A stretch of 64,000 nucleotides of DNA from a virus (Duplodnaviria; Heunggongvirae; Uroviricota; Caudoviricetes). The first letter of the stretch is position 1. Each line of letters opens with the position of its first letter. The position numbers and the translations under genes are program-made. Positions 1,847-46,745 of this stretch are shown piece after piece. Under the pieces are notes generated by a model. It did no database searches. It was not told where the DNA came from and saw only the letters and a program-made list of their open reading frames with translations. Where the stretch lies: IMG/VR virus record IMGVR_UViG_3300028832_000098, positions 81,241 through 145,240 of that record. The stretch is one strand, 5' to 3'.

Positions 1847-2551
1847 TTCATAAATCCAATGATAGCCAGATTTATCAAGTATGAATGCTATGTTCAAAAC
1901 GGTATTCAAAGCACAGTATTCTATCTCTGACTCTTCAGGCTTGTTGCCGAATAAATGTGGAAGCATCTCATCGGTATTGACGATTTTAACTGTAGAACCG
2001 AAATAATCATCCTGTATGCTGTAGTCATTATTCGCAAATTCGTCATAATGAGTTATTTCCATAAGCTCGTCGGCATTCTCCTCTTCATCGCATCTATACG
2101 CGAATTCATAGTTACCAAGCTCTACACCATTCTTAGAACTCTCATTGATAAACTGGCTGTAAGTAAGTAGCTTTGAGCTACCCTCGGTAAAAAGCCTGTC
2201 ATATACGACTTTCACCTTTTCAAGTTCGTCGACAGTAAACTTGAAGATGATATTGACGTACATCTCATCTTTCGTAACATCAACTTGCTCTTTATAATCT
2301 TGCAGAGCAAATACTCCGAATATACTCTGAGCGGCATTATACGCGTCAGACTTGATTTGCTTCAAATCATAATATTCCCGTTGAGGGTCTTCGTGATAAG
2401 ACAAAGTAATCGTCAGGACATCTGACTTGAAGCTGTATGTTTTCTTCGTATAGTAACCAACGATATTCTCAAGGCCTATCGCATCAGATACGACCTTACT
2501 AAGCTCGTCGAGAATATCTTTCATATTTCTGTCATTTATTTTCATAATCAT
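1832..2551 (-). CDS. hypothetical protein
   Basis: 239-aa ORF with no recognisable motifs; its 3' end overlaps the tnpB stop. Confidence 0.4.
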   Translation of the reverse strand: MIMKINDRNMKDILDELSKVVSDAIGLENIVGYYTKKTYSFKSDVLTITLSYHEDPQREYYDLKQIKSDAYNAAQSIFGVFALQDYKEQVDVTKDEMYVNIIFKFTVDELEKVKVVYDRLFTEGSSKLLTYSQFINESSKNGVELGNYEFAYRCDEEENADELMEITHYDEFANNDYSIQDDYFGSTVKIVNTDEMLPHLFGNKPEESEIEYCALNTVLNIAFILDKSGYHWIYELLTN

Positions 2552-3243
2552 AGTTGTTGTTTTAAAATGTAATTAACGGCATCTTTAATAACTTTGCTGG
2601 ATTCATCATACAAATAATCAGTATCATAAAATCCGCCAGTAACAGCATGTACTTCGATATTATAGGCATACTCAGTTTTGGAGAATATGAGAACCCCATT
2701 ATATCTTCCGTTATATGTAATAAGAATCGAGTCTGTCTTATATATCTTAGCTTCATACTTGGCTCTGCCTATATTAAACATTTCAACAAATCTACTGACG
2801 ATATTCAGATATTCAGGCAGCAAATCCTTGATTTCAGGCATTGACTTCATACTTGATTTTTTCTTCTTGTCTTCATCTATGACATTCTGAAGCCATTCAA
2901 GCAATATCTTATACATCTCGTCAGACATCAGTCTTAGTTTGCTTTTATCGGCTACATTTATAATTGTCGTTACGTACTGCAAGCCGTTTTCAAGACGTAT
3001 CATCGCATATATCGGATGCCAATCTTGTTCAGGGTATAACATTACAGACACAACTTTATCGACAGGCTCCAAAAGATTTTTGTCCTTCAGCATTGTCTGC
3101 AGTTCCTCGACCTCTTTTGTTATGACAGAACCATAGGAATCACTTCCGTATTCATCCATCATATTTTCAAGGCTGCTGTCATATTCTTTACGTATGTCTT
3201 TTCCTTCTTTAAGGAACTGATTATATGTCTTTAATTTTTTCAT
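2548..3243 (-). CDS. hypothetical protein with CTS-like N-terminus (MKKLKTYNQFLKEG)
   Basis: 231-aa ORF. The N-terminal peptide matches the family motif M-x-K-L-K-T-[FY]-x-x-F-[IL]-x-E. A conserved leader ACATAAAATTTTTAATGAT lies directly upstream of the ATG. Confidence 0.5.
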   Translation of the reverse strand: MKKLKTYNQFLKEGKDIRKEYDSSLENMMDEYGSDSYGSVITKEVEELQTMLKDKNLLEPVDKVVSVMLYPEQDWHPIYAMIRLENGLQYVTTIINVADKSKLRLMSDEMYKILLEWLQNVIDEDKKKKSSMKSMPEIKDLLPEYLNIVSRFVEMFNIGRAKYEAKIYKTDSILITYNGRYNGVLIFSKTEYAYNIEVHAVTGGFYDTDYLYDESSKVIKDAVNYILKQQL

Positions 3244-3261
3244 ATCATTAAAAATTTTATG

Positions 3262-5169
3262 TTATGCTTCTCCGTATGTTTTCACCTCAACACCAAGAGC
3301 GGCTGCTTTCTTCATTTTTCCGGATGTCGAAGACATATCGTCTGTAAACAGGATTTTACATTGCTTCCAGTCTGATGTCTCTATATATTCAGGATGCGCC
3401 GCAAGGAAAGCTGCCTTGGTAACATATCCGAATTCTTTCGGACTTCCTGTCATAATCACAGGTATCGCCGTCGACGCAGCGGCTGCTTCCGGAGCCATAT
3501 TAACTTTGAACAAATTCGCATACCCAATAATAGTCTGGTATTCCTGAGAATTCTCATCAAGAAGCCATCTCTTGACTTCACCAGGCACGCCTATGAGATG
3601 ATTTGACTTGTCGCCCTTGATAAACTTGGCACAGACATCGGCAGCTACCTTGCCGCACAGACGGAACTGCAGGGCAAGTATGATTTCATTAAGCGTCAGA
3701 GTCTTACGCCTTTCAGTAAGGGCATTTACGATATTCATTATCGATGTCCCTGTTCCGAAACGTTCCTTCATAAAAGCGATTGATTCATCTTTCATAAAGT
3801 CAAGGACATTCTCGATTTTTACATCCTCGCTTGTAAAGAACTCAGGCATAATCTTACGTATCGTCGCCTCTTTGAAATTTCTGATGTTTATCGCCTCAGC
3901 GCCTGCTATTACCTTTATGACAACTTTTTCTTCAGCAGACAAGTCAATCATAAGATGAGGTCCTTTAACGGTCACATTCTCGGTAGGAGCCATATTGTCG
4001 CCTCCGTCTCTTACGATTTCATACACAAAAGGAATTATATCGCCGGCAAGCGAAATCTTAATGATAGAACCAACTCCGACGTTATTGTCCTTAACATATC
4101 CGTAGTTATGCAATGACGCCTTGTTGATGTTCTTTCCGTCCATCTTTATCGTCTTGAACACAGCCTTCGGGAAAAGTTCTCCTGTCTTTCCAACATTCCA
4201 TTCTATCTCCGTGATTTCTGTCTCGAGGATACTTGGTTTGTATTTGATTGCGACGCAGTCGCTCGGACGCTGAACATCTTCCGTCTTGCGGTATTTCACT
4301 TCTGGTTTCAACACGAAGCCGTCAAGAGGGAATTTGTAATCCTTACGAACTTTCTCCATTTCTTCGTAAATCCTCGCGAATTCCATAGGACTGAGTTCTG
4401 ATTTCTTAAAGGTAAGCACATTGTATGCGCATATGTCATAGCCAGGAACCGTATTATAGTCAACCCATTGATATGAGCCTGACGGAGATACAAGCCTGAA
4501 GTCATACACAACTATTGACAAATCTTTCCTTATATCAAGCTGTTCCTGTTTTCCGTCCCATTTCTGACCGAACATGCCAGCAACGAATGCCCTTGTATTC
4601 GCGAATTTATCCTGATAGCCTGCGTTAAAGTCATTAAAGCTTATAAGAGCTTCTCCCCTTACTACGAGCTTCTTGCCTTTCTGCAGGAATTCCTTGTAAG
4701 GTATTTCGTCTACATAAGGACTCAGCCAGTGGCTTACATCCGTACCGTATTCACCATCGCCTCTTGTCGATATTCCTTCAACATTTCCTTCGTCATCGAA
4801 CACCACCTCAAAAGAACATCCGTCGAATTTCGGAGTTACCTCAATGATTCCATCGTCCGGAACATTTTGGAAATACTTGTTAAGGGTATCGATATATGAG
4901 TCAAAATGGGTTTGGCCGTCTGAACCTTCTTTTATCTGTATTTTCGAAAGGCTTCCCATTTTTATCGGATGCTTTACGGTATAATTATCAGAATGATGTG
5001 TACCTATATAGCCCTGATTTTCAAGACCAAGCTTTCTTTCGAGCTCATCAAATTCAGCGTCGCCCATAATGGGGTTGCCATTATAGTATGCGTCTTTCGC
5101 CTTATTGTACAGTTCAAGGTCCTCTTCCCTTGATTCATAAAATTGTTTGAATGTCTTTAAGTGTTCCAT
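3262..5169 (-). CDS. ligA: NAD-dependent DNA ligase (LigA-like) with CTS-like N-terminus (MEHLKTFKQFYES)
   Basis: Adenylation motif KFDGCS (KxDG), TRGDGEYGTDVS (compare LigA TRGDGTTGEDIT), and an N-terminal LigA-like AYYNGNPIMGDAEFDELERKL. The ORF track begins at an upstream TTG; the ATG at 5169 is the likelier start. Confidence 0.8.
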   Translation of the reverse strand: MEHLKTFKQFYESREEDLELYNKAKDAYYNGNPIMGDAEFDELERKLGLENQGYIGTHHSDNYTVKHPIKMGSLSKIQIKEGSDGQTHFDSYIDTLNKYFQNVPDDGIIEVTPKFDGCSFEVVFDDEGNVEGISTRGDGEYGTDVSHWLSPYVDEIPYKEFLQKGKKLVVRGEALISFNDFNAGYQDKFANTRAFVAGMFGQKWDGKQEQLDIRKDLSIVVYDFRLVSPSGSYQWVDYNTVPGYDICAYNVLTFKKSELSPMEFARIYEEMEKVRKDYKFPLDGFVLKPEVKYRKTEDVQRPSDCVAIKYKPSILETEITEIEWNVGKTGELFPKAVFKTIKMDGKNINKASLHNYGYVKDNNVGVGSIIKISLAGDIIPFVYEIVRDGGDNMAPTENVTVKGPHLMIDLSAEEKVVIKVIAGAEAINIRNFKEATIRKIMPEFFTSEDVKIENVLDFMKDESIAFMKERFGTGTSIMNIVNALTERRKTLTLNEIILALQFRLCGKVAADVCAKFIKGDKSNHLIGVPGEVKRWLLDENSQEYQTIIGYANLFKVNMAPEAAAASTAIPVIMTGSPKEFGYVTKAAFLAAHPEYIETSDWKQCKILFTDDMSSTSGKMKKAAALGVEVKTYGEA

Positions 5170-5214
5170 AATCTTTCTCAAGTTTTTAGATAAAAATGTT
5201 TTAATTCTGTTCTT

Positions 5215-5688
5215 TTATTTTTTACAATGATTCTTTACAAAGGTCGCAAATTTTTCTAAGTCATAGTAACGTTTCTGATATATTCCGACAGCACCTACCT
5301 CGTATGTTACATAGACATCTTTGTCTGGAGTAGCGATTCCTGTCAGTTTCTCAGATTGTCTTAACGATGTCTTACTTACGACAGCATAAGTGCTTCGATA
5401 TGAAGTCCATAGACCGAGATATTTATCTATAAGCTCAATCTGTTCGTCGCTGTAACCTTCTTTTCTCAGTCTGACTTTATCCCAAGAAGATACGTGGTAG
5501 TCTTCGAAACCCCAAGCTATTTGAGGTGCTCTAAATTCGCGCTTGTATAATTCTTCACCATTCGGTACGAATATATATCCTCGTTCGCGTTTTCTACTAT
5601 CTTTTTTGACAACATAATCATTGATTTCGTTATCCCAGCCAGAAATAGCTTCATTGATAAAACTTTTGAAAGTCTTTAATTTTTCCAT
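5215..5688 (-). CDS. hypothetical protein with CTS-like N-terminus (MEKLKTFKSFINEA)
   Basis: Start trimmed to the ATG at 5688. The first 14 codons are nearly identical at the DNA level to those of 6892..7740. Confidence 0.5.
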   Translation of the reverse strand: MEKLKTFKSFINEAISGWDNEINDYVVKKDSRKRERGYIFVPNGEELYKREFRAPQIAWGFEDYHVSSWDKVRLRKEGYSDEQIELIDKYLGLWTSYRSTYAVVSKTSLRQSEKLTGIATPDKDVYVTYEVGAVGIYQKRYYDLEKFATFVKNHCKK

Positions 5689-5689
5689 A

Positions 5690-6160
5690 TTATATTTCAG
5701 TTTCGGCACCAAGCCAGTTTGACATCGTTATACGGTTCTTAACGGCAAGAGCTGCTATCCTCGTATGATACTTTTTGTTAATAAATTCGGTTATCGCTGT
5801 AAGTAAGGTATTGTCATTCATCATTTTTTTCATGACCTCTCTTTCGGCATTCGTCCTCGAACCAGACAGTTCAGAACTATAAAAGCTTTCATCTTTAAGC
5901 CTTGCCCTTGCGTCTATGACTATAACGCCATCAGATTTTCTTGAACCTATCCAAATAATTAAACGAGCCTTATCTGTGTCTACTGTATATTTTGAAAGGT
6001 CAAACAAGTATTCAGTATTATTCAGCTTACGCATCTTCTCATCATATTCCTCAACAGATACCTTCCATTTAGGTTCCCATTCAATGATGAGGTTCGTCAA
6101 GTCGTCAAGACTTACGGACTCTTTTAAGAACTTGCTATATGTCAGCAATCCCTTACTCAT
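5690..6160 (-). CDS. hypothetical protein with CTS-like N-terminus (MSKGLLTYSKFLKES)
   Basis: 156-aa ORF tightly packed in the same operon. Confidence 0.45.
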   Translation of the reverse strand: MSKGLLTYSKFLKESVSLDDLTNLIIEWEPKWKVSVEEYDEKMRKLNNTEYLFDLSKYTVDTDKARLIIWIGSRKSDGVIVIDARARLKDESFYSSELSGSRTNAEREVMKKMMNDNTLLTAITEFINKKYHTRIAALAVKNRITMSNWLGAETEI

Positions 6161-6165
6161 GTCGC

Positions 6166-6741
6166 CTACAGTTTTACATAGATATGATACTTGCCTACAG
6201 TATGGTTGTCATACTGCTGGTATATCGCAAGCATATCATCATTATACTCTATCTTCATGAAGCCTTCGATTGCTTCTCCTTCTATGGTCTCGGAGTAATC
6301 GTAAATGACATGTTTCGCGATACCATTCATAAGGTCGACTGTCGCCATGCCGCCCCAATGCGTATTTTTAGATGAATATAGTTTCGTGTTTATCATCGAA
6401 CCTTGCCCAATTCTCTTCAGGAAAGTATAATCACGAACGTTTTTCTTCTCAACCCATTTATCTATAGCCTGAATTATTTGTATATCAGTTTCAATCTTGG
6501 ATATTTCTTTTAATCTAAGACCTTTATACTTGTCGGATGTCTTAGATACAGCATATAAATCTTCAAGTGTTCTTTCTTCCCCTTGAAATGGCTTTTCAAA
6601 GAAAGACTCATAAATGGAATCGCTTATTACACTTGTATCAGCTTTCAAGAATCTTCCAGCATCATCTGATTCAGCAATTACCTGATTATAAGTCTTTAAG
6701 ACAAATCCTTTATTTTCAGAAATTTCTTTAATTTTTTCCAT
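6166..6741 (-). CDS. hypothetical protein with CTS-like motif at residues 14-25 (LKTYNQVIAES)
   Basis: 191-aa ORF, preceded by the TTGTTTTTTATATAAAAGCTTAAAAGATT leader. Confidence 0.45.
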   Translation of the reverse strand: MEKIKEISENKGFVLKTYNQVIAESDDAGRFLKADTSVISDSIYESFFEKPFQGEERTLEDLYAVSKTSDKYKGLRLKEISKIETDIQIIQAIDKWVEKKNVRDYTFLKRIGQGSMINTKLYSSKNTHWGGMATVDLMNGIAKHVIYDYSETIEGEAIEGFMKIEYNDDMLAIYQQYDNHTVGKYHIYVKL

Positions 6742-6891
6742 AATCTTTTAAGCTTTTATATAAAAAACAATATCTACAATCTATTTATGGTTTTCCCGGT
6801 TATTTATATTCAGATTCTATGCGAAGCTACTCGATAAAAAGAAAGTGTCAAAGAATTTCACTCTGACGTTCTCTTTTCATATTGTCTTACT

Positions 6892-7740
6892 TTATTGTTT
6901 TATATCAGGTTTATATTCCTGCTTGATTGGACAATTAACGAACATATCCCTGCATATTACTTCTTTCGAAACATTCCAATTTGAAATATCTTGGTTGAAA
7001 GATTCAGTATAATGAAACATAGCTTCCATATCTTCTACATTTGAAACATCCCAGTTTCCAATTGGCTGATTAAAACATTTTGCAAAACTAAACATGCTTC
7101 TCATATTTTTTACATTTGAGACATCCCAGTTTTCAATTGGTTGATTGAACTTCTCTGCTCTATGGAACATAAAAGGCATATAATAGGCATTTGAAATATT
7201 CCAGTTTCCAATTGGCTGATTGAAGCTTTTTGCAGCACTAAACATACTTCTCATAATTTTGACATTTGAGACATCCCAGTTTTCAATAGATTGGTTGAAC
7301 TTTTCTGCAGCACTAAACATACTTCCCATATCCTCTACATTTGATACATTCCAGTTTCCAATAGGTTGATTGAAACTTTTTGCAGACATAAACATCATTC
7401 CCATATCTTTTACATTTGAAACCTCCCAGTTTTCAATAGATTGATTGAACTTTTCTGCACTACTGAACATTCTTCGCATGTTCGTCACATTACTTGTATC
7501 CCATTGTGATATATCACCATTAAAACTTCTGGCAAATGCAAATAAATGGCTCATATCAGTAATCCTTGATGTGTCAATATCATTAAAGTCACCTTCAAAA
7601 CCTCTCTCCTCTATAAGAGCTTCCATAAGCAATTTCAATTCATCTCTATCTTCAGGATAGTACTTTCCATTATTTTTTCTGAAAGCATTCAAATCAATAC
7701 TTTCTTTGATGAAGCTTTTGAATGTCTTTAATTTTTCCAT
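6892..7740 (-). CDS. DUF285-type (Mycoplasma/Bacteroidota surface 26-residue repeat) protein with CTS-like N-terminus (MEKLKTFKSFIKES)
   Basis: About 8 tandem repeats of FNQPIxNW[DN]VSNVxxMxxMFxxAxxFNQ; preceded by the TTGTTTTTTATATAAAAGC motif. Confidence 0.6.
   Translation of the reverse strand: MEKLKTFKSFIKESIDLNAFRKNNGKYYPEDRDELKLLMEALIEERGFEGDFNDIDTSRITDMSHLFAFARSFNGDISQWDTSNVTNMRRMFSSAEKFNQSIENWEVSNVKDMGMMFMSAKSFNQPIGNWNVSNVEDMGSMFSAAEKFNQSIENWDVSNVKIMRSMFSAAKSFNQPIGNWNISNAYYMPFMFHRAEKFNQPIENWDVSNVKNMRSMFSFAKCFNQPIGNWDVSNVEDMEAMFHYTESFNQDISNWNVSKEVICRDMFVNCPIKQEYKPDIKQ
6930..7578. repeat. Coding tandem repeats (~78 bp units) encoding DUF285 repeats
   Basis: Visible periodic repetition of ...cccagttttcaat[ag]g[ac]ttg[ag]ttgaa... 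units. Confidence 0.7.
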
Positions 7741-16403: not shown

Positions 16404-16441
16404 ACAATAAAAAAGAAGGTCTTCTTTTTACGGAAGACCTT
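16404..16441 (-). terminator. Intrinsic terminator after the major capsid gene (same hairpin as 15532..15557)
   Basis: AAGGTCTTCCGTAAAAAGAAGACCTT followed by CTTTTTTATTG on the minus strand, 26 nt after the MCP stop. Confidence 0.65.
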
Positions 16442-16466
16442 CTTGGTTGTTTCTAACTGTGTTAGA

Positions 16467-18164
16467 TTACACAAGTTCGATTGATGGGCTAAATGCCATA
16501 TCGAAACGCAAGTATTGCAAATCTGGATAGTGACCAGCAGCAAGAAGTGCGAAACGAGATTTCATTGCACCAGCGTATGCGAATGTCGCAGTTGCTGTCG
16601 TAGTTACTTTCTTAGCCATAATGTATGGTAAGAAAATCAAACCTGGGTCATTAGGTTTAGTGATACGACCAACCAAAACGCCTGTATAGTTTACAGGAAG
16701 GTTCGGGTCTTGGTACAATGTAATGTTGCTTACCTGTCCAATTGGATTAGGAGCATCAGCTACAGATTGAACGTTGTTAGGCAAAGTGATTTGAGTAAGA
16801 CCTGCTACAGATTGTACTGCAGTTACGAACTGAGTAGAACCGATAGCGAAGAATTTACCACCTGACAAACGAGAATCGTGAGAGATGATGTTAGCAGCAT
16901 ACAACAATTTACGCATTACACGTGCTTGAAGTGTCAACGAAGTTTCACCACCGTTGTCAACAACTACTTGTTTGTAATCTTTGTAAGCAGCAGGAATGTC
17001 TTCGTCAGCATCTGCAACTGATTTGAAGTAAGTGTTCAATACTTCGCCTCTGTCTTCAAGACGGTCAGCATGTTTGCCAGCCAATTCCCACATCTTAGTT
17101 AAGATGTACTTGTTAGTAGATTGAGACAATTCGTTAAGAGCATCACCTTCGATTTGAGCGATGATGTCTTGACCGTCAGCCTGTGCATCTTCGATTTGTT
17201 CCCAAGTAGCTGAGAAACCAACTTGGTAAGTTCTTACTTTGTAATCGAAAGAAGTACGTTTAGCACCCAAGAAGTTAACTGTAGTAGCTTCTCCTTCTTC
17301 ACGTTCGAATGGTTCTACACCGAAATTGTTGTCGTAAGGATTCTTTGAACCAGTTTTTTCTACTGAGTTTTCATAGAAGTCACGACCTGTGAATGCAGTG
17401 ATGTGATTTTCTTTCGTATTTACTTGACCGAATACGAAGATACCTTCGAATGCTTCTGCAAGAGTTTGAGCGCCATTGAAACGACGTGCATTGAATTCAC
17501 CCGGTTTAGCGTCTTTTCTTTCAACTAAGAAGATTGGTTTACCAGAGATGAAGCCAAGTTCAACGAATGTCAATTTGAAATCACCTTGTTCAATAACAGG
17601 AGCTTCAGAACCTTCAGCTTCGATAACTTTCTTCAATAATTCTGCACCTTCTTCAGAAGCTTCAACAACTTCAACAAGCAATGGGTCAGCAACTGCATTT
17701 GTAAATTTGTAGCTTACATTACCATCTTTGTCGTAAGTACGCAAGTCACCATTGATACGGCCACCTTCGTAAACAGTATCGTAGAAACGATATTGACCTT
17801 GAGGAGCTGATACCGGTACAACTGCCAACAAGTCAAGAGCGATTGTTTGAGCAGCTGCTTGCATTGCGATAGCTACACTTGAAGCGATTGCATCTGCTGA
17901 ACCGTTACGTACACCAGAGAAACCATTTTCACCACCATTAGGGAATTGAATTGCGCCAGCGCCTTGCATAGTCATTGACGGATTCAATGTTGGTCCCCAG
18001 AAAGCAGATTCCAAAATTGGTTTCATTTTATCGTCGTTATCTTGGATAGCGCAAACTTTAGACATCCAAGCAACTTTTACAGGGTCTTTTATTCCGGTTG
18101 ATTCTTCAATCACCTTGCCCCAATCCTGAAGGGCTTTTACACTATTGATTTCCATTTCTATCAA
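16467..18164 (-). CDS. Major capsid protein, T4 gp23-like (HK97 fold)
   Basis: ...AIASSVAIAMQAAAQTIALDLLAVVPVSAPQGQYRFYDTVY... aligns with T4 gp23 ...NLIAFDICGVQPMNSPTGQVFALRAVY.... Length 565 aa; followed by a terminator; next to the protease-scaffold gene. Confidence 0.8.
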   Translation of the reverse strand: MIEMEINSVKALQDWGKVIEESTGIKDPVKVAWMSKVCAIQDNDDKMKPILESAFWGPTLNPSMTMQGAGAIQFPNGGENGFSGVRNGSADAIASSVAIAMQAAAQTIALDLLAVVPVSAPQGQYRFYDTVYEGGRINGDLRTYDKDGNVSYKFTNAVADPLLVEVVEASEEGAELLKKVIEAEGSEAPVIEQGDFKLTFVELGFISGKPIFLVERKDAKPGEFNARRFNGAQTLAEAFEGIFVFGQVNTKENHITAFTGRDFYENSVEKTGSKNPYDNNFGVEPFEREEGEATTVNFLGAKRTSFDYKVRTYQVGFSATWEQIEDAQADGQDIIAQIEGDALNELSQSTNKYILTKMWELAGKHADRLEDRGEVLNTYFKSVADADEDIPAAYKDYKQVVVDNGGETSLTLQARVMRKLLYAANIISHDSRLSGGKFFAIGSTQFVTAVQSVAGLTQITLPNNVQSVADAPNPIGQVSNITLYQDPNLPVNYTGVLVGRITKPNDPGLIFLPYIMAKKVTTTATATFAYAGAMKSRFALLAAGHYPDLQYLRFDMAFSPSIELV

Positions 18165-18272: not shown

Positions 18273-20228
18273 TTAGAATCCGTATTTCAAACGTCTTTTT
18301 ATCTCTTCAGCGACAGAAGCCTGTACTTTTCCTTCATTACGGACGTTCCTGTTCTGATTCCTCAAAGATTCCGAAAGATATTTTTTCGTATCTTGACTGC
18401 TTACGCTTTCCGTAAGATTCCTTGTCTTCCAGAAACGAACAGCTGCGTCTACACTGCCGATAATATACAATTTGCTTTCGTTAAGGATTTCTTTCTTACG
18501 GTTGTCAGAAAGAGCGCTCCAAGATTCTTTCAAGTAGTCAGGCATAAATTGAATAAGTTTTTCTGCCTCTGTAACAGATTTCTGTTCATTTATGGCTTGA
18601 CTCTGTTGTTCCATCTTATTGTTTGTATCCTTAATAGACGAAGCAATAGAATTTACAGATTCTACAAGGTTTTGAAGTTGAGTGTCTTCAGTACTGCGCT
18701 GTTTACCTTCAACCATCATCTTGATGTCTTCTATAGATTTGTCAGCAGCTTCAACTATGCTCTGCATTTTACCGCTAAGCTTTTTGTTGATTTTAGTCTG
18801 AGACTCAGAGATATATTCTGTATACTTCTGAAGCATCTCAATTTTTTCATTAAGCTGCTTGTTCTTCTGAAGAACCTTATCGAAACTTTCAGAAAGATAT
18901 TTTGTATATCCTTCAAGCATTTCAGCCGTTACCGTGTTCTTTTCAAGATGTTCAGACAAATATGCTGTATAACGTTCCATATCCTTTGATGTGACAACGT
19001 CTTTATTCATCTTTTTAAGATGTTCTGACAGATAGCCTGTATATTTTTCCATAGCATCGCTTGTAACTACGTTTTTATTCATAGCTGCAAGATGTTCAGA
19101 AAGATATGCAGTATACTTTTCTACGTCTTCGCTTGTAACGACACCTTTTTTCAATTTATTCAAGTATTCAGACAAATACTTAGTGTATTTATCCATGTCG
19201 CGTCTTGTTACGACATCTTGAGGGTTGCCTAACTTCTGTTCCATATAATAATTATTAAAGTTGATTCCACTTACAAAGAAATATGTCTTTCCGTCTTGTA
19301 CGGTTGGACCGTCAGTAATGTTCGCACCAATATTGTTCAGACATTGTTCAACAGCGTTATTGATTATGCCTGTGAATTCACCTGTTACATTCTTTCCGAA
19401 TTCAACCTCAACATGGTCGTTTACGAAATTAACTATTGCTGTATCAGAATTTGATTCAACAGAACAGATACCCATATCGCTGTCGACTGTTATGTCCATT
19501 TTGCCAGGATTCATACCGAGCGCCTTACGGAATTCACCTATAATAGACTTGCCGTCTATTTTCGGTTTTTCATTTCCGCTTTCAGGTTCTTTCTGACCTT
19601 CATCCTGCAATTCGTACAAATCGGCGCCATCGAAAGACTCGAGTATTACACGGCTCTTCATTTTGGCATTCTTCTGTGAACTCAAAGCATTAACGGCATT
19701 TATAAGAGCGTCAGAACCCGCGCCCTTGCTTTCGTTAACTGCATGGAGAACTGCATTCTCAAAACCTGGTTCAGCAACAAGGTCATAAGTTATAAGTTCT
19801 TCGACAACGACATGATTGTCAGGTGTCAAAGTACCGATAGCCCTTGAAGATATATGAAGAGGCACTTTATTTTCTATAAGAGTCTTCGCGATTCTTCCTG
19901 AAGGAGTATTTAATAATTTGATACGACCCTTTATAGAATCTGTCTTTTGGTCATAGCTTAGACTTTCAACTATATGAGAAACGTTCTGATAAGACACATA
20001 CCTCATATTAGCGGGATGTTCAAGCTCACCGAGAAGGTCATGATTCTTAATCTTTTCCGTAAGAGCACCAAGCTTCTCAAGGAAATTCTTAGAGTCATAT
20101 ATCCTGTTATTACGATTCTTCACGTTAAACGTCGTGAAGCATCCTTCAAGAACAATATCGCCGCCGTCCGCAGAACTTGAGCAGACACCGTCACTTAAAC
20201 TCTCAACGATATATTTCTTATTTTCCAT
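18273..20228 (-). CDS. Prohead core protease (T4 gp21-like) fused to a scaffold-like coiled-coil domain with tandem repeats
   Basis: N-terminal LGELEHPANM...TPSGRIAKTLIENKVPLHISSRAIG matches gp21 LGEHD...TPAGQLVESLLKEGVLLEASSRAWA. The C-terminal ~350 aa are coiled-coil with 6 repeats of VVTS[ED]D[VM]EKYT[AG]YLSEHL...MNK. Confidence 0.75.
   Translation of the reverse strand: MENKKYIVESLSDGVCSSSADGGDIVLEGCFTTFNVKNRNNRIYDSKNFLEKLGALTEKIKNHDLLGELEHPANMRYVSYQNVSHIVESLSYDQKTDSIKGRIKLLNTPSGRIAKTLIENKVPLHISSRAIGTLTPDNHVVVEELITYDLVAEPGFENAVLHAVNESKGAGSDALINAVNALSSQKNAKMKSRVILESFDGADLYELQDEGQKEPESGNEKPKIDGKSIIGEFRKALGMNPGKMDITVDSDMGICSVESNSDTAIVNFVNDHVEVEFGKNVTGEFTGIINNAVEQCLNNIGANITDGPTVQDGKTYFFVSGINFNNYYMEQKLGNPQDVVTRRDMDKYTKYLSEYLNKLKKGVVTSEDVEKYTAYLSEHLAAMNKNVVTSDAMEKYTGYLSEHLKKMNKDVVTSKDMERYTAYLSEHLEKNTVTAEMLEGYTKYLSESFDKVLQKNKQLNEKIEMLQKYTEYISESQTKINKKLSGKMQSIVEAADKSIEDIKMMVEGKQRSTEDTQLQNLVESVNSIASSIKDTNNKMEQQSQAINEQKSVTEAEKLIQFMPDYLKESWSALSDNRKKEILNESKLYIIGSVDAAVRFWKTRNLTESVSSQDTKKYLSESLRNQNRNVRNEGKVQASVAEEIKRRLKYGF
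18820..19195. repeat. Coding tandem repeats (~72 bp) encoding the YTxYLSEHL scaffold repeats
   Basis: Repeated ...gtaacgacatc...ttttccat...cttgt... units visible in the DNA. Confidence 0.7.
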
Positions 20229-20229
20229 T

Positions 20230-20368
20230 GTTATTATAAGTTTTTCTTATATATTTATTTTTTTTGAAAATTCCTAAAAAATTATGCGTAATACCTCATC
20301 ACCGTACCTTCATTAGTTTTCAGGTTTTTGATGTCGACATCCACTTCCATACACACTTCTTTTTCCCA
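20230..20368. repeat. Copy 2 of the 138-bp direct repeat (see 63..200); spans the 3' end of 20282..20662 and the protease-gene upstream region
   Basis: Near-identical to 63..200. Confidence 0.85.
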
Positions 20369-20662
20369 TGTCAGAAATTTTACCGACAATTCGTATGTGA
20401 CATTTTCAGTCGTATTTACAAAACGTTTCATCTGGTCGTTGATGTCAGCCTCGACCATATCTTCATTATAATTTGTCTTAAACAGGTAGTCGCTCAGATT
20501 GCATCCGTAATCAGGCATATTCAGCAATTCACCTCTATTTGTAAAAAACAAGACATTCATCTGTTGGATTAACTCCGCGATTTCGGAGTTAACCTCAACA
20601 GCTGAATTATCTTCAGTCACCAAATAATTAGGAGGCAATATGTTGAAATCCCTTAATCCCAT
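20282..20662 (-). CDS. hypothetical protein (126 aa) between the sheath and protease genes
   Basis: ORF; its last 29 codons are duplicated at 116..200. Confidence 0.45.
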   Translation of the reverse strand: MGLRDFNILPPNYLVTEDNSAVEVNSEIAELIQQMNVLFFTNRGELLNMPDYGCNLSDYLFKTNYNEDMVEADINDQMKRFVNTTENVTYELSVKFLTWEKEVCMEVDVDIKNLKTNEGTVMRYYA

Positions 20663-23226
20663 TATTCGCCAAATGACAATGTAGATATTACACCAGTCTT
20701 GTAGATAGTTGCTCTTTGAGTAATTTTCTCAAGACCTTTAGCAAGTTCCAATCCGACATCGATAACGCCAGAGTTTGCATCAATGACTTCATTGGTGTTA
20801 TTCGATTTGTTCATTACTGTACTGAAGTCATAGATACCACCTGCTCTCTTTATGTCTTCAAGGAAAGAATCGACGATACTCTTGATTTCGCGACGGGTAT
20901 TGTCATCGTTATGATATACACCGAATATGTATTTCTGCAAAATGCTTTCTATACTGAGAACGATATATATCAAAGTATCAGTACAGTGCAAAGAACTCAA
21001 TGAAGACTTTGGAGACTGTTTAGCAGTAACGTTACCGTAAATAACTGCCTCATAGTTGTCTATCTTCACGATACTGTTGAATCCGAATGGTTCAAGCCAA
21101 TCGCGGTTGTCATCAGTTATCGTAGACTCAACACCTTTAACGCCGTCACCGAGAACACCAAGTTCAGTACCTGCTACCAAGTACCAAGGGAAATCACCTT
21201 TCTTATAGAAAAGATTCGAAACAGCTGCTGAAGGCGGAACGAATTTTTCTATAGAGTTATCGAGTATCTTTACATAAGGATAGAAGTAACCGCCGAATGA
21301 AGCACCCTGCTCTTCTTTAGGTAAAGAATACTTGAACTGAGAAGGGATGTTAGGATTACCTCCCTTAGAAATATATTCTGCAGAAACGATTCCGTTCTTG
21401 CCCCGGAATACAGGTCCTGGTTTTTCAGCAGACTTAAACTCTTTTACAGAAGGTCCGTTTATAATCGCAAGAGAAAGTCTCTTTTGACAAATCTCTGTAA
21501 ACACTTTCTTAGATTCAGGACTAATACCGTTACCGAATGTATCGACAAGATACCTGAACTGTAAGATGCGTTTATCTACAAGCGATTTAAACAAACTGTA
21601 TTCAGGTTTGTTAACATCATCCCTATCATAGTTTTCTTCAAGAATAGAAAGAATGTTCTCTTGTTGTTTCTCGACAGCAAAAGGTTCTTGCTGTTCACCG
21701 GTACCAGGCATGTGACGAGCTTCAAGCTTGAATCCGTTAAGGCATATCCATTGATAGCTCTTTACTGCCTCATCAACTTGTTTGGCTACACATACATTAT
21801 TCTCTTCATCAATGAAAGGTAATGAATCATAGCAAATAACTTTTTTGAATACTTGCTCAGAACTTTCTTCAACAGAGGTCTCTACCATTTCAACATTATA
21901 TACTCTTGTCAACCTGCCGACAGCAACGTCAGATACAAAATAATCGCCTGTCTTAATGTTTTCATCTTTATCAACATAGATTTCATTAGGATTAAGACTT
22001 TCATTCGTATATGCCTTTACTTTCCTATACAAACCATTGCTTTCGCCGTATGCAGATACTTTACCAGAGTATGACAACATGTTAACCTCTATTCCTTCAG
22101 AATCTTCTATTTCAGATTCAGGGTCAATGAGCTTCTGTACAAGTTTATGACCGATAATATCTATCTTTTCATCAATAATATCTTGATTGTCATATCCTGA
22201 CTTAATTTCAGCATTCTCTACCAATTCTGTGTTTTCATAGCAGATAACACCTGTATAGTTCGTATCGTCATTGATAAGCTTTTGTATCCAGACATTGATA
22301 CCAAGCTTATTCACGAAATTAGGAATAAGACAACCGGTATAAGTTGCAAGAACTTTTACAGACTGAATCTTCAAGAAATCCTGAAGTTTGTCAGCTTTGA
22401 AACCGTTTTCATCGAAATAGTTTTGGTATGTGATGTCTGAGGTAAATCTGTAATATTGCTTATCTTTTTCCACAGGAATACTTATTTCAGTAAGGCACGG
22501 TGTTCCGTCATCAAACTGAGTTCCTGTATGTTCAGGCTTAATATCGCATTTCGGACCGAAATCACCTTGAACGATATAAACGTCTACGAAGTAATCAGAG
22601 ACAATAGAAGTTGGGTTAAGGTATGAAGGAATTTCTTCATCACCATACCAGTCCTTAACTGTCATGTTATAACCCATACGGTTGTATTCCGAAGACCTCT
22701 TTACAAGAATGCTTACAGGTTTCTTGTTGATATTTACGAAGTTCAATATCTGAGGTTTTACCTCTTGAGGGTCGAAATACTTAGATACAGTATAACCGTA
22801 AGTTTCAGCATCAGGAATCCAGAATACAGATGTGTCATAGCATCCAGATAATGGCAATGACATTATATTATTGTTTGCCACATCAGAAGCAACAGATATG
22901 CCTGCGTTAGGAACCCTGTCTTTACTTTCTTCTGTCTTCAAAAGATTAAGAACAAGTATTGAACTTGTATTCAATGCCATTTTAGCCATTCTGTGAAAAT
23001 AGCTACCTGACTTCTCAAGACTTCTGTCAATGTCACCGAACATCTTTACGAAGTCCGTATAATTATTGACTTGTACAGGCCTGTTAACAGGACCTTGCTT
23101 AGAAAAGCCTATTAGCAACCTTTGTCTCGTAGGACTAACTGGCATGTCGTTAGACTGCTGGCTCTTATCTATAATAAGAGTGTAAACTCCGGCAGAATTA
23201 TGCTTTAAAGATGAATCTATTGCCAT
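20662..23226 (-). CDS. Tail sheath protein (T4 gp18-like)
   Basis: N-terminal ...YTDFVKMFGD (compare gp18 VDLVNTFGQ). Mid-region PPSAAVSNLF...WYLVAGTELG, and C-terminal ...DDNTRREIKSIVDSFLEDIKRAGGIYDF matching gp18 ...NNAFTRSSFRTETAQYLQGNKALGGIYEY. TATAAATA lies 33 nt upstream. Confidence 0.75.
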   Translation of the reverse strand: MAIDSSLKHNSAGVYTLIIDKSQQSNDMPVSPTRQRLLIGFSKQGPVNRPVQVNNYTDFVKMFGDIDRSLEKSGSYFHRMAKMALNTSSILVLNLLKTEESKDRVPNAGISVASDVANNNIMSLPLSGCYDTSVFWIPDAETYGYTVSKYFDPQEVKPQILNFVNINKKPVSILVKRSSEYNRMGYNMTVKDWYGDEEIPSYLNPTSIVSDYFVDVYIVQGDFGPKCDIKPEHTGTQFDDGTPCLTEISIPVEKDKQYYRFTSDITYQNYFDENGFKADKLQDFLKIQSVKVLATYTGCLIPNFVNKLGINVWIQKLINDDTNYTGVICYENTELVENAEIKSGYDNQDIIDEKIDIIGHKLVQKLIDPESEIEDSEGIEVNMLSYSGKVSAYGESNGLYRKVKAYTNESLNPNEIYVDKDENIKTGDYFVSDVAVGRLTRVYNVEMVETSVEESSEQVFKKVICYDSLPFIDEENNVCVAKQVDEAVKSYQWICLNGFKLEARHMPGTGEQQEPFAVEKQQENILSILEENYDRDDVNKPEYSLFKSLVDKRILQFRYLVDTFGNGISPESKKVFTEICQKRLSLAIINGPSVKEFKSAEKPGPVFRGKNGIVSAEYISKGGNPNIPSQFKYSLPKEEQGASFGGYFYPYVKILDNSIEKFVPPSAAVSNLFYKKGDFPWYLVAGTELGVLGDGVKGVESTITDDNRDWLEPFGFNSIVKIDNYEAVIYGNVTAKQSPKSSLSSLHCTDTLIYIVLSIESILQKYIFGVYHNDDNTRREIKSIVDSFLEDIKRAGGIYDFSTVMNKSNNTNEVIDANSGVIDVGLELAKGLEKITQRATIYKTGVISTLSFGE

Positions 23227-44634: not shown

Positions 44635-45396
44635 ATGGAAAAGTTAAAGACTTACAAGCAGTTTATCAAAGAGTCAAGTGACTTCGATTCGCAAGAAACG
44701 TATACCGGTCATTTTGTTGTTTATGACAATAAGGGAGATATTATAAGCGACTTTAAGGATACCTGCATTGCTTCAAGTGAAGAAGAGGCAGAAACAATTC
44801 TTCTTGGAAGGAACGGTACATTTTCTAAGGGACAGAACAGAGTCGTAAAGCTTTCCCGTATTGTAAAGGAAAGTCCGTTTTTGGATGAAGGCAACAGCAT
44901 TGATGAACTTGAATTTGCGAAGACCATAGGCAATAAGAATGTATATGAAAACCTTGATTCATTGTTTAACAAGTTGAGCGACCCTAAAACTCCTTCTATA
45001 ATCAGGAAAACAATCGTACCGGATATAAGTGAGTTCAGGACAGAGATACTTGATTTCGCAAGGGAAAACAATATATCTGCTGACAATATGGATTGGCTTA
45101 TCGCTGAAATAAAAGTACGCAGCCGGAAGACAGGTGTTCCTACTGAGCTGTATGTCGCTTGCTTCAAGTCTTTGCTTTCTGAGCTTGAAGACTTCAATAT
45201 AGCTGCACTTGAAAGCCTTGTCCCTGAAGATTCAATCTTCTTGACGGTAAATCCTGACAAGGAAACAGTAGATAAAATGTATGACATTATGAAGGCATTC
45301 GTAAGCGGTACATTCTCAAAAATAAACCTCATAGGCTTGCTACAAGGCAATATGGCAGTTGCTATGAAGCAATCTGGTGACCTAAAAGGTATATAA
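44635..45396 (+). CDS. hypothetical protein with CTS-like N-terminus (MEKLKTYKQFIKES)
   Basis: 253-aa ORF followed by a strong terminator. Confidence 0.5.
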   Translation: MEKLKTYKQFIKESSDFDSQETYTGHFVVYDNKGDIISDFKDTCIASSEEEAETILLGRNGTFSKGQNRVVKLSRIVKESPFLDEGNSIDELEFAKTIGNKNVYENLDSLFNKLSDPKTPSIIRKTIVPDISEFRTEILDFARENNISADNMDWLIAEIKVRSRKTGVPTELYVACFKSLLSELEDFNIAALESLVPEDSIFLTVNPDKETVDKMYDIMKAFVSGTFSKINLIGLLQGNMAVAMKQSGDLKGI

Positions 45397-45418
45397 TTTA
45401 CTGATTATCAGATAGTTC

Positions 45419-45462
45419 TAAAAATATCCCGAAGACTTGCTTAGTTTTCGGGATATTTTTTC
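45419..45462 (+). terminator. Intrinsic terminator (13-bp perfect stem AAAATATCCCGAA...TTCGGGATATTTT plus T-run)
   Basis: Seen directly; 23 nt after the 45396 stop. Confidence 0.7.
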
Positions 45463-45497
45463 AATAACCATAAATAATAACGTAATGACATAAGGAG

Positions 45498-45953: not shown

Positions 45954-45956
45954 AGT

Positions 45957-46739: not shown

Positions 46740-46745
46740 GGTACT

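What the first reader, a model, noticed from the sequence alone, without database searches (positions are those of the whole stretch)
18273..20228. Prohead protease fused to a repeat-built scaffold that carries protease-site-like LSE motifs
The gp21-like protease domain (residues ~20-180) is followed in the same polypeptide by a long coiled-coil. That coiled-coil holds six tandem ~24-aa repeats, VVTS[ED]D[VM]EKYT[AG]YLSEHL.. Each repeat contains L-S-E, which matches the T4 gp21 cleavage consensus (L/I-x-E). This suggests a scaffold made of units that the attached protease can cut after capsid assembly. A middle domain (~residues 270-330) also has a free-standing paralogue with a CTS-like N-terminus at 46746..47117.
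Basis: partly seen in the sequence, partly recalled or inferred. Interest (0 to 1): 0.6.

Follow-up and report, generated by a model that had tools for sequence, protein, structure and literature searches.

The report
Capsid protease fused to cleavable scaffold
An uncultivated large phage joins its capsid-maturation protease to a helical scaffold built from repeats that each carry the protease's likely cutting motif, and the same motif tags at least ten proteins apparently destined for packaging into the capsid.

Summary
ORF 18273..20228 (-) encodes 651 aa.

- **Protease:** residues ~5-166 are a T4 gp21-type prohead protease (Pfam S77, PHROG 207, best fold match 5JBL). The catalytic His and Ser are conserved.
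- **Repeats:** four clear 24-aa repeats, two degenerate ones and one isolated copy all carry Y-[LI]-S-E.
- **Middle domain:** residues 229-328 have a free-standing paralogue at 46746..47117.

- Distant relatives from huge phages have repeats of other periods (14 or 17 aa) but keep Y-[LIV]-[ASG]-E. Glu is at 92% and Asp is not among the alternatives seen.
- The repeat core Ar-x-x-Ar-[LI]-x-E is also the pattern of the T4 capsid-targeting sequence and of the T4 gp23 cleavage site.
- The same pattern sits at the N-terminus of six window ORFs, and at least ten ORFs carry the wider T4-CTS-like leader.
- The major capsid protein (MCP) gene follows directly. The C-terminal region therefore occupies the slot that gp22 holds in T4.

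Cleavage and scaffolding themselves are inferred, not shown. A conserved in-frame Met before the scaffold part hints at a nested scaffold-only product, as in herpesviruses.

Verdict: a real feature and a new variant of a known kind, of moderate interest.

The parts
18273..20228 (-). Whole ORF, 651 aa: prohead protease, linker and small domain, repeat-built helical region, conserved C-terminal domain
19731..20216 (-). Protease domain, residues 5-166 (T4 gp21 / assemblin fold). It has H71 and S127 and ends at the conserved V-N-E166|S
   Evidence: Pfam S77 and S80, phrog_207. PDB 5jbl by sequence and by fold, E=3e-7, TMt 0.66-0.68. VNE|S-type motif in 36 of 43 family representatives.
19545..19730 (-). 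Poorly conserved linker, residues 167-228, with [LI]xE motifs ILE197, LYE206 and IGE232
   Evidence: AF2 pLDDT below 50
19245..19544 (-). Lineage-specific small alpha/beta domain, residues 229-328, paralogous to ORF 46746..47117; function unknown
   Evidence: BLASTP E=8e-17. Absent from P0002 and from most relatives. No informative fold match.
19242..19244 (-). In-frame ATG (Met329) ten codons before the first repeat; candidate internal start for a scaffold-only product (hypothesis)
   Evidence: A Met lies 2-7 residues before the leading motif in 20 of 23 fused family representatives, against about 10% expected. Its AT-rich context without a Shine-Dalgarno sequence resembles real gene starts.
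18783..19217 (-). Repeat array, residues 338-482: six units (338-361, 362-385, 386-409, 410-433, 434-454, 459-482), each with Y-T-x-Y-[LI]-S-E
18573..18782 (-). Non-repetitive helical segment, residues 483-552, with further [LI]xE motifs (IVE493, LVE523, INE548)
18408..18572 (-). Conserved C-terminal domain, residues 553-607 (MPDYLKESWSALSDNRKKEILNESK...FWKTRNLTE). It is the hallmark of the family and a proposed shell- or portal-binding module (inferred)
   Evidence: Invariant columns in A1 and A2. Best-modelled part outside the protease, pLDDT about 70-82. Also present in Lak-A2 and phage pT24.
18276..18407 (-). C-terminal tail, residues 608-651, with the seventh Y-L-S-E (617-620, nt 18369-18380) and a basic end (EEIKRRLKYGF)
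16467..18155 (-). gp23-like major capsid protein directly downstream. Its propeptide has W-G-K-V-I-E-E|S and I-L-E52|S
   Evidence: Pfam Gp23; conserved [LIV]xE|S across four relatives
16413..16444 (-). Hairpin terminator after the MCP gene; it ends the protease-scaffold/MCP transcription unit
46746..47117 (+). Free-standing paralogue of the middle domain, with the CTS-like leader MGNLKTFSEY and L-Q-E27|A
   Evidence: AF2 pLDDT 85 with residues 1-13 disordered. Only one near-identical homologue in 5.8 billion proteins.
2548..7740 (-). Cluster of six genes with T4-CTS-like N-termini (2548-3243, 3262-5169 NAD-dependent DNA ligase, 5215-5688, 5690-6160, 6166-6741, 6892-7740 DUF285); presumed capsid cargo and protease substrates
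44635..45953 (+). Two further genes with CTS-like N-termini (44635-45396 MEKLKTYKQFIKE|S; 45498-45953 MKALLTFKEFLE)
58108..58521 (+). Gene whose N-terminus MEPLKTYSDFIAE|G is nearly identical to the T4 CTS MKTYQEFIAE
   Evidence: T4 CTS sequence from PMC8442874

Best explanation
The ORF encodes a prohead-core polyprotein of an uncultivated phage of the T4 superfamily, probably a jumbo phage. It combines, in one chain, the roles that T4 splits between gp21 (protease) and gp22 (scaffold).

**What is shown**
- The N-terminal 166 residues are a gp21/assemblin-fold serine protease with the catalytic His and Ser.
- The C-terminal ~320 residues are helical. They are built from repeats whose conserved core is Ar-x-x-Ar-[LI]-x-E, and they end in a family-wide conserved domain.
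- The gene sits directly upstream of the major capsid protein gene.
- The same seven-residue pattern marks the N-termini of many other genes in the window.

**What is inferred**
- The helical part co-assembles into the core on which the gp23-like shell forms, and so carries the protease inside.
- The conserved C-terminal domain and basic tail contact the shell or the portal.
- Once the shell closes, the protease cuts after Glu in [LIV]-x-E. This frees it from the scaffold (candidate site V-N-E166|S).
- It cuts the scaffold into peptides of 13-31 residues that can leave the capsid.
- It removes the MCP propeptide (I-L-E52|S).
- It clips the 13-residue targeting leaders from the cargo proteins.
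- The small middle domain (229-328) would be released as a folded piece of about 14 kDa that stays inside, as its leader-tagged paralogue would.
For: **Protease identity.** Pfam S77 and S80 and phrog_207 match. H71 and S127 align with T4 H85 and S140. The best fold match is 5JBL, followed by HCMV, EBV and VZV proteases.

**Repeats under selection.** The core is invariant although units share only 46-72% nucleotide identity and use different synonymous codons.

**The motif matters, not the period.**
- Relatives have repeats of 14, 17 or 24 residues, all with Y-[LIV]-[ASG]-E.
- In 211 unique 14-aa units anchored outside the motif, Tyr is at 88%, L/I/V at 97%, A/S/G at 91% and Glu at 92%. Asp is not among the six commonest residues at that position.
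- In T4, Asp at this position blocks processing (PMC9026906).

**T4-type specificity in this phage.**
- Ten of 67 ORFs start with M-x-x-L-K-T-[YF]-x-x-F-[LI]-x-E|[GSA]; only one internal hit exists.
- Ar-x-x-Ar-[LI]-x-E occurs 16 times in the window proteome against 2.4 expected. Six hits are scaffold repeats and six are N-terminal leaders.
- The T4 CTS (YQEFIAE) and the T4 gp23 maturation site (FGSFLTE|A) fit the same pattern.
- The four fixed positions are the T4 CTS determinants: residues 4 and 7 for targeting, 8 and 10 for processing.

**Density and position.**
- The MCP propeptide keeps [LIV]-x-E|S at one aligned position in four relatives.
- Site density is 14 in 321 aa here and 16 in 269 aa in T4 gp22.
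- The order is protease-extension then MCP, with no separate gene between them, in the window, L002, L004, L013 and phage pT24. T4 has 21-22-23.
- [VIL]-x-E|[SG] closes the protease domain in 36 of 43 representatives.
Against: - Nothing shows cleavage or scaffolding directly.
- The C-terminal region has no significant match to the T4 gp22 family (phrog_237 not hit; pairwise BLASTP only E=0.003).
- In the closest relative, P0002, two of four units read Y-I-S-K and Y-M-S-K. The first unit of P0003 reads Y-L-K-K. Not every unit need be cleavable.
- Tyr and Leu of the motif could be conserved as helix-packing positions.
- The AF2 model of the helical part has low confidence (pLDDT 30-50).
- Other relatives (Lak-A2, pT24) have the long extension and the C-terminal domain but no such repeat array. 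The array is therefore not essential to the architecture.
- A fused protease implies one protease per scaffold chain, unlike the roughly 1:6 ratio in T4, unless a scaffold-only product is also made.
Confidence: 0.65

Rival explanations
1. The C-terminal extension is only a targeting propeptide. It carries the protease into the prohead and is then removed, as proposed for phiKZ gp175 and SPN3US gp245. The real scaffold would be another, unrecognised protein.
For: - In SPN3US the C-terminal region of the protease is removed by autoproteolysis and is inferred to target the enzyme into the prohead (PMC5694885).
- Lak-A2 and pT24 share the conserved C-terminal domain but lack the repeat array. The conserved function may therefore lie in that domain alone.
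- Many window ORFs have no annotation and could hide a scaffold.
Against: - About 480 residues is far more than targeting needs.
- The region is helical, rich in charged residues and packed with [LI]-x-E, like T4 gp22.
- It occupies the gene-22 slot, and no other gene lies between protease and MCP in five loci.
- Repeat number varies between relatives from about 6 to 16 units, as expected for a length-tunable structural element.
Confidence: 0.15
2. The conserved Ar-x-x-Ar-[LI]-x-E core is mainly an assembly or binding element and not a cutting site. It could be a helix-packing unit of the core, a docking site for the CTS leaders of cargo proteins, or a contact for MCP subunits. The resemblance to the cleavage consensus would then be secondary.
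For: - The T4 CTS positions needed for targeting (4 and 7) are the two aromatic positions of the motif. Tyr at 88% is not part of the published L/I-x-E consensus.
- Spacings in relatives are multiples of seven (14, 21, 28, 35), as in coiled coils.
- Some units in P0002 and P0003 have lost Glu but keep the aromatic and aliphatic positions.
Against: - Glu is the single most conserved non-anchored position (92%), and Asp is not among the residues seen there. The neighbouring acidic positions 3 and 10 exchange E, D and N freely. That fits a Glu-specific protease better than a surface charge.
- The same pattern is the actual gp23 cleavage site in T4.
- The two roles are not exclusive.
Confidence: 0.15
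3. The repeats are a neutral low-complexity expansion in a coiled-coil linker, and the L-S-E motifs are there by chance.
For: Coiled-coil regions often expand by tandem duplication. Glu and Leu are common in them.
Against: - Seven Y[LI][SA]E copies against 0.035 expected.
- Diverged DNA with an invariant core and synonymous codon changes.
- The same core in about 50 protein clusters at 50% identity, with other repeat periods.
Confidence: 0.03

Closest known systems
Phage T4 prohead core: gp21 protease, gp22 scaffold and the capsid-targeting sequence (CTS) of internal proteins
   Same: - Protease family S77, with catalytic His and Ser at aligned positions and the same fold.
- Gene order protease, scaffold, gp23-like MCP.
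- A helical scaffold dense in [LI]-x-E: 16 per 269 aa in gp22, 14 per 321 aa here.
- N-terminal leaders that match MKTYQEFIAE almost residue for residue, for example MEPLKTYSDFIAE.
- An MCP propeptide with an [LI]-x-E site.
   Different: - Protease and scaffold are one polypeptide here and two genes in T4.
- The scaffold part shows no significant sequence similarity to gp22.
- It is built from tandem repeats whose core copies the CTS and gp23-site pattern. T4 gp22 has no such aromatic pattern.
- It carries an extra small domain and a conserved C-terminal domain that T4 lacks.
Herpesvirus UL26 / UL26.5 (assemblin-linker-scaffold, with a nested scaffold-only gene)
   Same: - An N-terminal protease of the same fold, fused to a C-terminal scaffold that it later cuts (PMC11565193).
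- A candidate release site at the end of the protease domain (VNE166|S) and candidate sites near the C-terminus (LTE607|S, YLSE620|S). These recall the herpesvirus R and M sites (my own knowledge).
- A conserved in-frame Met ahead of the scaffold part could give a nested product like UL26.5.
   Different: - Cutting would follow Glu, not Ala|Ser.
- The scaffold would be cut many times into small peptides, not released largely intact.
- Nested expression is only a hypothesis here.
Phage protease-scaffold arrangements: lambda C/Nu3 and P2 gpO (my own knowledge); Mu-like phages and other fusions (named in papers listed)
   Same: One reading frame delivers the protease into the procapsid through a scaffold part, and self-processing follows.
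   Different: - Those proteases belong to other families (ClpP-like S49 or U35/S78-type), not to S77.
- Their scaffold parts are not repeat arrays carrying the enzyme's own site in every unit.
phiKZ gp175 / SPN3US gp245 (family S80) with a C-terminal propeptide
   Same: - Distant homologues of gp21 with a C-terminal region that is removed by autoproteolysis and thought to target the enzyme (PMC5694885).
- A weak Pfam S80 match here (30 bits).
   Different: - Their motif is A/S/G-x-E, whereas the sites inferred here are [LIV]-x-E.
- Their extensions are much shorter and not repetitive.
- No gp22 counterpart had been confirmed in those phages.

Membership tests
Peptidase S77 (T4 gp21-type prohead protease) | Sequence match above the curated Pfam threshold | tested here: met
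   PF03420: 45 bits against a cut-off of 27, E=1.1e-11. phrog_207: E=3e-39.
Peptidase S77 (T4 gp21-type prohead protease) | Catalytic His and Ser at the positions of T4 H85 and S140 | tested here: met
   H71 (GELEHP) and S127 (HISSRA) align with GELNHP and GVSSRG. Both are invariant in 20 relatives.
Peptidase S77 (T4 gp21-type prohead protease) | gp21/assemblin fold | tested here: met
   Foldseek top hits are 5jbl chains A-C (E=3e-7, TMt 0.66-0.68), followed by herpesvirus proteases. The domain's pLDDT is only about 70-85.
Peptidase S77 (T4 gp21-type prohead protease) | Cuts after Glu in L/I-x-E | not testable with these tools
   Indirect only: conserved [LIV]-x-E in the MCP propeptide, in the CTS-like leaders and in the repeats.
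T4 gp22-type scaffolding protein (phrog_237) | Sequence homology to gp22 | tested here: not met
   The C-terminal region and its relatives do not hit phrog_237, while T4 gp22 hits it at 1.6e-92. Pairwise BLASTP gives only E=0.003 over 56 residues.
T4 gp22-type scaffolding protein (phrog_237) | Encoded between the protease and the major capsid protein | tested here: met
   As a fused C-terminal region directly upstream of the MCP in the window, L002, L004, L013 and pT24.
T4 gp22-type scaffolding protein (phrog_237) | Helical and dense in protease sites | tested here: met
   DSSP helix over residues 339-550 of the model, which has low confidence. Amphipathic periodicity. 14 [LI]xE against 4.2 expected.
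T4 gp22-type scaffolding protein (phrog_237) | Forms the prohead core and is degraded on maturation | not testable with these tools
   Needs virion and prohead proteomics or assembly assays.
Protease-scaffold fusion with a nested scaffold gene (herpesvirus UL26/UL26.5 type) | Protease and scaffold in one reading frame | tested here: met
   A single 651-aa ORF. The same layout holds in most of about 60 clusters at 50% identity.
Protease-scaffold fusion with a nested scaffold gene (herpesvirus UL26/UL26.5 type) | Separate in-frame expression of the scaffold part | tested here: inconclusive
   A conserved Met lies 2-7 residues before the leading motif in 20 of 23 representatives (P about 3e-17 if relatedness is ignored). 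In the window it is at -10 (M329). The start-like AT-rich context fits. There are no expression data.
T4-type capsid-targeting sequence (CTS) | N-terminal leader of about 10 residues with the determinants Y4, F7, I8 and E10 | tested here: met
   Ten ORFs carry L-K-T-[YF]-x-x-[FYV] in their first 25 residues. Seven of them have [LI]-x-E|[GSA] immediately after the leader and one (46746..47117) has L-Q-E further down at residue 27. Determinants from PMC9026906.
T4-type capsid-targeting sequence (CTS) | Directs packaging into the capsid and is clipped off | not testable with these tools
   Needs virion proteomics or fusion-protein packaging tests.
Peptidase S80 (phiKZ gp175 type) | Best family match and an A/S/G-x-E site motif | tested here: not met
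   The S80 score (30 bits) is lower than the S77 score (45 bits). The inferred sites have L, I or V at P3, not A, S or G.

The most novel reading that the evidence does not exclude
The scaffold is an array of capsid-targeting-sequence modules. Each repeat carries the same four determinant positions (Ar-x-x-Ar-[LI]-x-E) as the leaders of the cargo proteins. A cargo leader would then work by mimicking one scaffold repeat: it slots into the scaffold assembly and is later removed by the same cut. That would give a structural explanation for how the T4-type CTS works.

In addition, a conserved internal Met (M329 here) would start a scaffold-only product from within the protease gene. This phage lineage would then use the herpesvirus UL26/UL26.5 expression logic to set the protease-to-scaffold ratio.
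Probability: 0.3. Interest if true: 0.7.

Novelty: new variant of a known kind. Interest (0 to 1): 0.55.

Why it matters
- **Scaffolds of very large phages.** How these phages build and then empty their scaffolding cores is poorly known. [quoted passage not shown]
- **A candidate core protein.** This family has hundreds of members, on contigs up to 388 kb and in a 636-kb genome. It offers a concrete candidate: a protease that brings its own disposable scaffold, with a cutting site in every repeat.
- **The targeting tag.** The repeat core and the cargo leaders share one pattern. That suggests a simple, testable model for how the classic T4 capsid-targeting tag recognises the core. The tag is already used to load foreign proteins into T4 capsids.
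- **A link to herpesviruses.** The possible nested scaffold gene would tie phage and herpesvirus capsid-maturation modules more closely together.
- **An experimental system.** A cultured relative, Tenacibaculum phage pT24, shares the general layout and could serve for experiments.

Tried and rejected
1. **Free-standing versions of the scaffold part.** I looked for these as proof of a gene fusion.
   - P0135 (L007) is split by a run of N.
   - P0128 (L012) is split by an in-frame TGA.
   - P0170 and P0140 lie on contigs too short to tell.
   - P0141 (L006) follows a 217-aa protease, but the MCP gene of that contig is also frameshifted, at a G-run. The split is therefore most likely an assembly error.
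   - Only L011 (ATGA overlap) may be a natural split, and a single indel would refuse it.
2. **Programmed -1 frameshift in L006.** A_AAA_AAG sits in the right frame. It is not excluded, but I set it aside for the same reason.
3. **Homology to T4 gp22, gp67 or gp68.** No significant match.
5. **Internal sigma-70 promoter ahead of M329.** Promoter-like sites are no more frequent than in shuffles. The scan does not cover Bacteroidota-type promoters.
6. **Full-length structure.** Mean pLDDT is 51, so the helical region cannot be interpreted in detail.
7. **Literature.** Four searches found no description of this architecture, although protease-scaffold fusions in general are well known.
8. **Close relatives in GenBank phages.** None above 60% identity.
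Full report
**1. What is at the coordinates**

ORF 18273..20228 on the minus strand is intact and encodes 651 aa. It lies in a late structural operon. Upstream are a tail sheath gene (20662..23226) and a gp25-like gene (20282..20662). Directly downstream, after 117 nt, is a gp23-like major capsid protein gene (MCP, 16467..18155), followed by a strong hairpin terminator at 16413-16444. The window has 38% G+C and no tRNA genes. Its relatives come from huge uncultivated phages:
- Lak phages;
- a 636-kb genome, LR756504;
- contigs of 255-388 kb.

**2. The protease domain**

- Residues ~5-190 match Pfam Peptidase_S77 (E=1.1e-11, above threshold), Peptidase_S80 (weaker) and phrog_207 (E=3e-39).
- The only solved structure found by sequence is T4 gp21, 5JBL.
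- H71 and S127 align with T4 H85 and S140. These are the two positions altered in the crystallised protein, and both are invariant in 20 relatives.
- The protease part of an AF2 model (pLDDT about 70-85) finds 5JBL first (E=3e-7, TMt 0.66-0.68), then HCMV, EBV, VZV and HSV-1 proteases.

This part of the finding is settled.

**3. The repeats**

- Y-[TI]-x-Y-[LI]-S-E starts at residues 348, 372, 396, 420, 441 and 469. That gives four clean 24-residue units and two degenerate ones.
- A seventh copy, K-K-Y-L-S-E, lies at 615-620.
- Shuffles of residues 331-651 give 0.035 Y[LI][SA]E on average against 7 observed. They give 4.2 +/- 1.8 [LI]xE against 14 observed.
- TRF sees only 3.3 copies at 72% identity. 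Unit pairs are 46-72% identical in DNA, and the invariant Tyr, Thr, Leu and Ser use different synonymous codons. The repeats are old and kept by selection on the protein.
- The region is predicted helical and amphipathic. The 24-residue period is not a multiple of seven, and the low-confidence model breaks the first four units at N-V-V-T-S. 'One long coiled coil' is therefore not established.

**4. The family**

About 670 proteins match the full protein, and most are 640-680 aa long. An exhaustive search with the C-terminal 321 residues alone finds 61 clusters at 50% identity. Most of them are again protease plus extension.

Relatives at about 30% identity also carry tandem repeats, but with other periods:
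- 14 residues (H-Q-D-Y-L-A-E-N-M-N-K-M-I-x) in most of them, with 13 such units in the 636-kb phage;
- 17 residues in P0003;
- 24 residues in P0002 and in the window.

All share Y-[LIV]-[ASG]-E. I built a logo of 211 unique 14-residue units that was anchored on positions outside the motif. Position 4 is Tyr in 88%, position 5 is L/I/V in 97%, position 6 is A/S/G in 91% and position 7 is Glu in 92%. Asp is not among the six commonest residues at position 7, whereas the acidic positions 3 and 10 exchange E, D and N freely. Selection therefore acts on the motif and not on the period, and it is specific for Glu.

Not every unit keeps Glu. P0002 has Y-I-S-K and Y-M-S-K, and the first unit of P0003 has Y-L-K-K.

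**5. Evidence that this phage uses T4-type cutting and targeting**

- The T4 protease cuts after L/I-x-E. It degrades gp22, gp67 and gp68 to small fragments that leave the head. It also removes propeptides of 7 to 65 residues, including the ~10-residue capsid-targeting sequences (CTS), from proteins that stay (PMC9026906 and PMC5694885).
- The T4 CTS is MKTYQEFIAE (PMC8442874). Residues 4 and 7 serve targeting and residues 8 and 10 serve processing, and Asp at position 10 blocks processing.
- In the window, ten of 67 ORFs begin with M-x-x-L-K-T-[YF]-x-x-F-[LI]-x-E|[GSA], for example MEPLKTYSDFIAE|G and MEKLKTYKQFIKE|S. There is only one internal hit in 20,000 residues.
- The tagged proteins include an NAD-dependent DNA ligase and a DUF285 protein.
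- The MCP propeptide keeps [LIV]-x-E|S at one aligned position in four relatives (ILE|S, VLE|S, LNE|S). It also has a W-x-x-[VF]-I-x-E|S near residue 18.

**6. One pattern links repeats, leaders and T4 sites**

The pattern Ar-x-x-Ar-[LI]-x-E occurs 16 times in the window proteome against 2.4 expected. Six hits are the scaffold repeats, six are N-terminal leaders and one is an internal leader-like site. The 14-residue repeats of relatives (Y1-x-x-Y4-L5-x-E7) fit it too. In T4, the CTS (Y-Q-E-F-I-A-E) and the gp23 maturation site (F-G-S-F-L-T-E|A) fit it, whereas gp22, gp67 and gp68 do not. The repeats therefore match the extended context of two of the best-known T4 sites, not just a three-residue consensus. 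This is the strongest sequence argument that they are substrates. It also raises the possibility that leaders and repeats recognise each other or share a common partner.

**7. Position and candidate release sites**

- T4 has genes 20-67-68-21-22-23 in that order. Here, and in L002, L004, L013 and the cultured phage pT24, the long protease gene is followed directly by the MCP gene. The extension thus sits where gene 22 would be.
- It has no significant similarity to gp22. I call it a positional and functional analogue, not a homologue.
- E9 is invariant in an [LI]-V-E context; T4 gp21 has L-I-E9 at the same place. V-N-E166|S closes the protease domain and is present as [VIL]-x-E|[SG] in 36 of 43 representatives.
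- L-T-E607|S ends the conserved C-terminal domain, but this site is less general.
- A limit digest at [LI]-x-E would cut residues 355-651 into 14 peptides of 13-31 residues. It would leave the middle domain within a 122-residue piece.

**8. The middle domain**

- Residues 229-328 align with ORF 46746..47117 at 32% identity, E=8e-17.
- The paralogue has a leader-like N-terminus (MGNLKTFSEY), and its first [LI]-x-E is at residue 27.
- P0002 lacks the domain.
- My reading, by inference, is a lineage-specific internal head protein. One copy would be delivered as part of the polyprotein and the other through a leader.

**9. Is it a 'fusion'?**

Most apparent free-standing scaffold homologues proved to be artefacts, or could not be judged because their contigs are too short. 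The one neat case, L006, comes from a contig whose MCP gene is also frameshifted at a homopolymer. L011 remains a possible natural split. The fused state is therefore the norm for this family. 'Fusion' describes its relation to the T4 layout, not a documented evolutionary event.

**10. A conserved internal Met**

In 20 of 23 fused representatives a Met lies 2-7 residues before the leading motif [FY]-[IV]-[ST]-x-E-[DE]-F-x-K-Y-[ST]-E-x-L of the scaffold part. About 10% would be expected from the Met content of the linker, giving a binomial P of about 3e-17 that ignores relatedness. In the window it is M329, ten residues before the first repeat. Its upstream DNA is AT-rich and lacks a Shine-Dalgarno sequence, like the real gene starts here. 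The possibly split form, L011, lacks this Met. This fits a nested scaffold-only product, as in herpesvirus UL26/UL26.5, where the scaffold transcript is about tenfold more abundant than the fusion transcript (PMC11565193). It is a hypothesis only.

**11. Comparison and verdict**

- Protease-scaffold fusions are a well-known kind: herpesvirus UL26 and various phages, and lambda C/Nu3 and P2 gpO (my own knowledge). The T4 core system is a textbook case.
- New here is the combination of three things: an S77 protease joined to a repeat-built scaffold, a repeat core that copies the CTS and cleavage pattern, and a large set of leader-tagged genes in the same genome.
- Four literature searches found no description of this architecture. 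The one source-given name among the 120 family members listed is 'uncharacterized coiled-coil protein SlyX' (JGI).
- I rate it a new variant of a known kind, with interest 0.55. My confidence in the protease-plus-cleavable-scaffold reading is 0.65.

Noticed in passing
window 2548-7740 (-), 44635-47117 (+), 58108-58521 (+), 60721-61980 (+): At least ten ORFs start with a T4-CTS-like leader (M-x-x-L-K-T-[YF]-x-x-F-[LI]-x-E|[GSA]). They sit in two clusters plus singletons. The tagged proteins include an NAD-dependent DNA ligase (3262..5169), a DUF285 protein (6892..7740) and a weak Tpt1/KptA-like protein (58108..58521). A virion-packaged DNA ligase would be unusual.
   Followed up: partly
window 1832-2551 (-), residues 128-137: A CTS-like motif (LLTYSQFINE|SSK) lies inside an ORF, not at its start. 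Either the true start is further downstream, or the protein has a long propeptide of about 125 residues.
   Followed up: no
window 683-1846 (+) and 39158-40417 (-): Two TnpB / IS605 OrfB-type genes (Pfam OrfB_IS605 and Cas12f1-like TNB) lie within the phage structural region.
   Followed up: partly
window 16413-16444: A 12-13 bp G+C-rich hairpin with T runs on both sides lies immediately after the MCP stop codon. It is a likely bidirectional terminator.
   Followed up: no
L006 5989-6013 and 7500-7560 (JGI 3300071178, 204-kb contig): The protease and scaffold ORFs overlap by 13 nt, and the canonical slippery heptamer A_AAA_AAG lies in the protease frame. A -1 slip would read into the scaffold frame. 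The MCP gene of the same contig is also frameshifted, at a G-run, so assembly error is the likelier cause.
   Followed up: partly
L012 about nt 55-63 (ENA ERZ28613064 scaffold_113574): An in-frame TGA replaces the Gly codon of the conserved E-S-Y-G-F-G-D-D linker in an otherwise continuous protease-scaffold ORF. It could be a sequencing error, a nonsense mutation or stop-codon recoding.
   Followed up: no
L014 3956-7359 (Tenacibaculum phage pT24, LC168164.1, BPT24_140 and BPT24_139): A cultured 235-kb phage has the same general layout. Its 527-aa S77 protease has a helical and acidic extension and the same conserved C-terminal domain, and it lies directly upstream of a gp23-like protein annotated as hypothetical. 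It has no Y-L-x-E tandem array. It could serve as an experimental system.
   Followed up: partly
L008 2884-4668 (Prevotella phage Lak-A2, MK250019.1): The Lak phage protease ORF is open for 595 codons. It has a long Asp/Glu/Ser-rich low-complexity region instead of the repeats, then a C-terminal domain related to the family's (…FWEKTGLRTRE).
   Followed up: partly
L005 (T4) gp23 residues 59-65, and gp22 residues 1-9: The T4 gp23 maturation site F-G-S-F-L-T-E|A has the same Ar-x-x-Ar-[LI]-x-E pattern as the T4 CTS. The gp22 N-terminus (MLKEQLIAE) resembles the CTS end (…EFIAE).
   Followed up: partly
window 8820-10568 (-) and 11277-12245 (-): Two neighbouring ORFs share a near-identical N-terminus (MKYR[AS]KILIK...PVMPVNKKFAVV...). 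The longer one has a glycosyltransferase match (phrog_26101).
   Followed up: no
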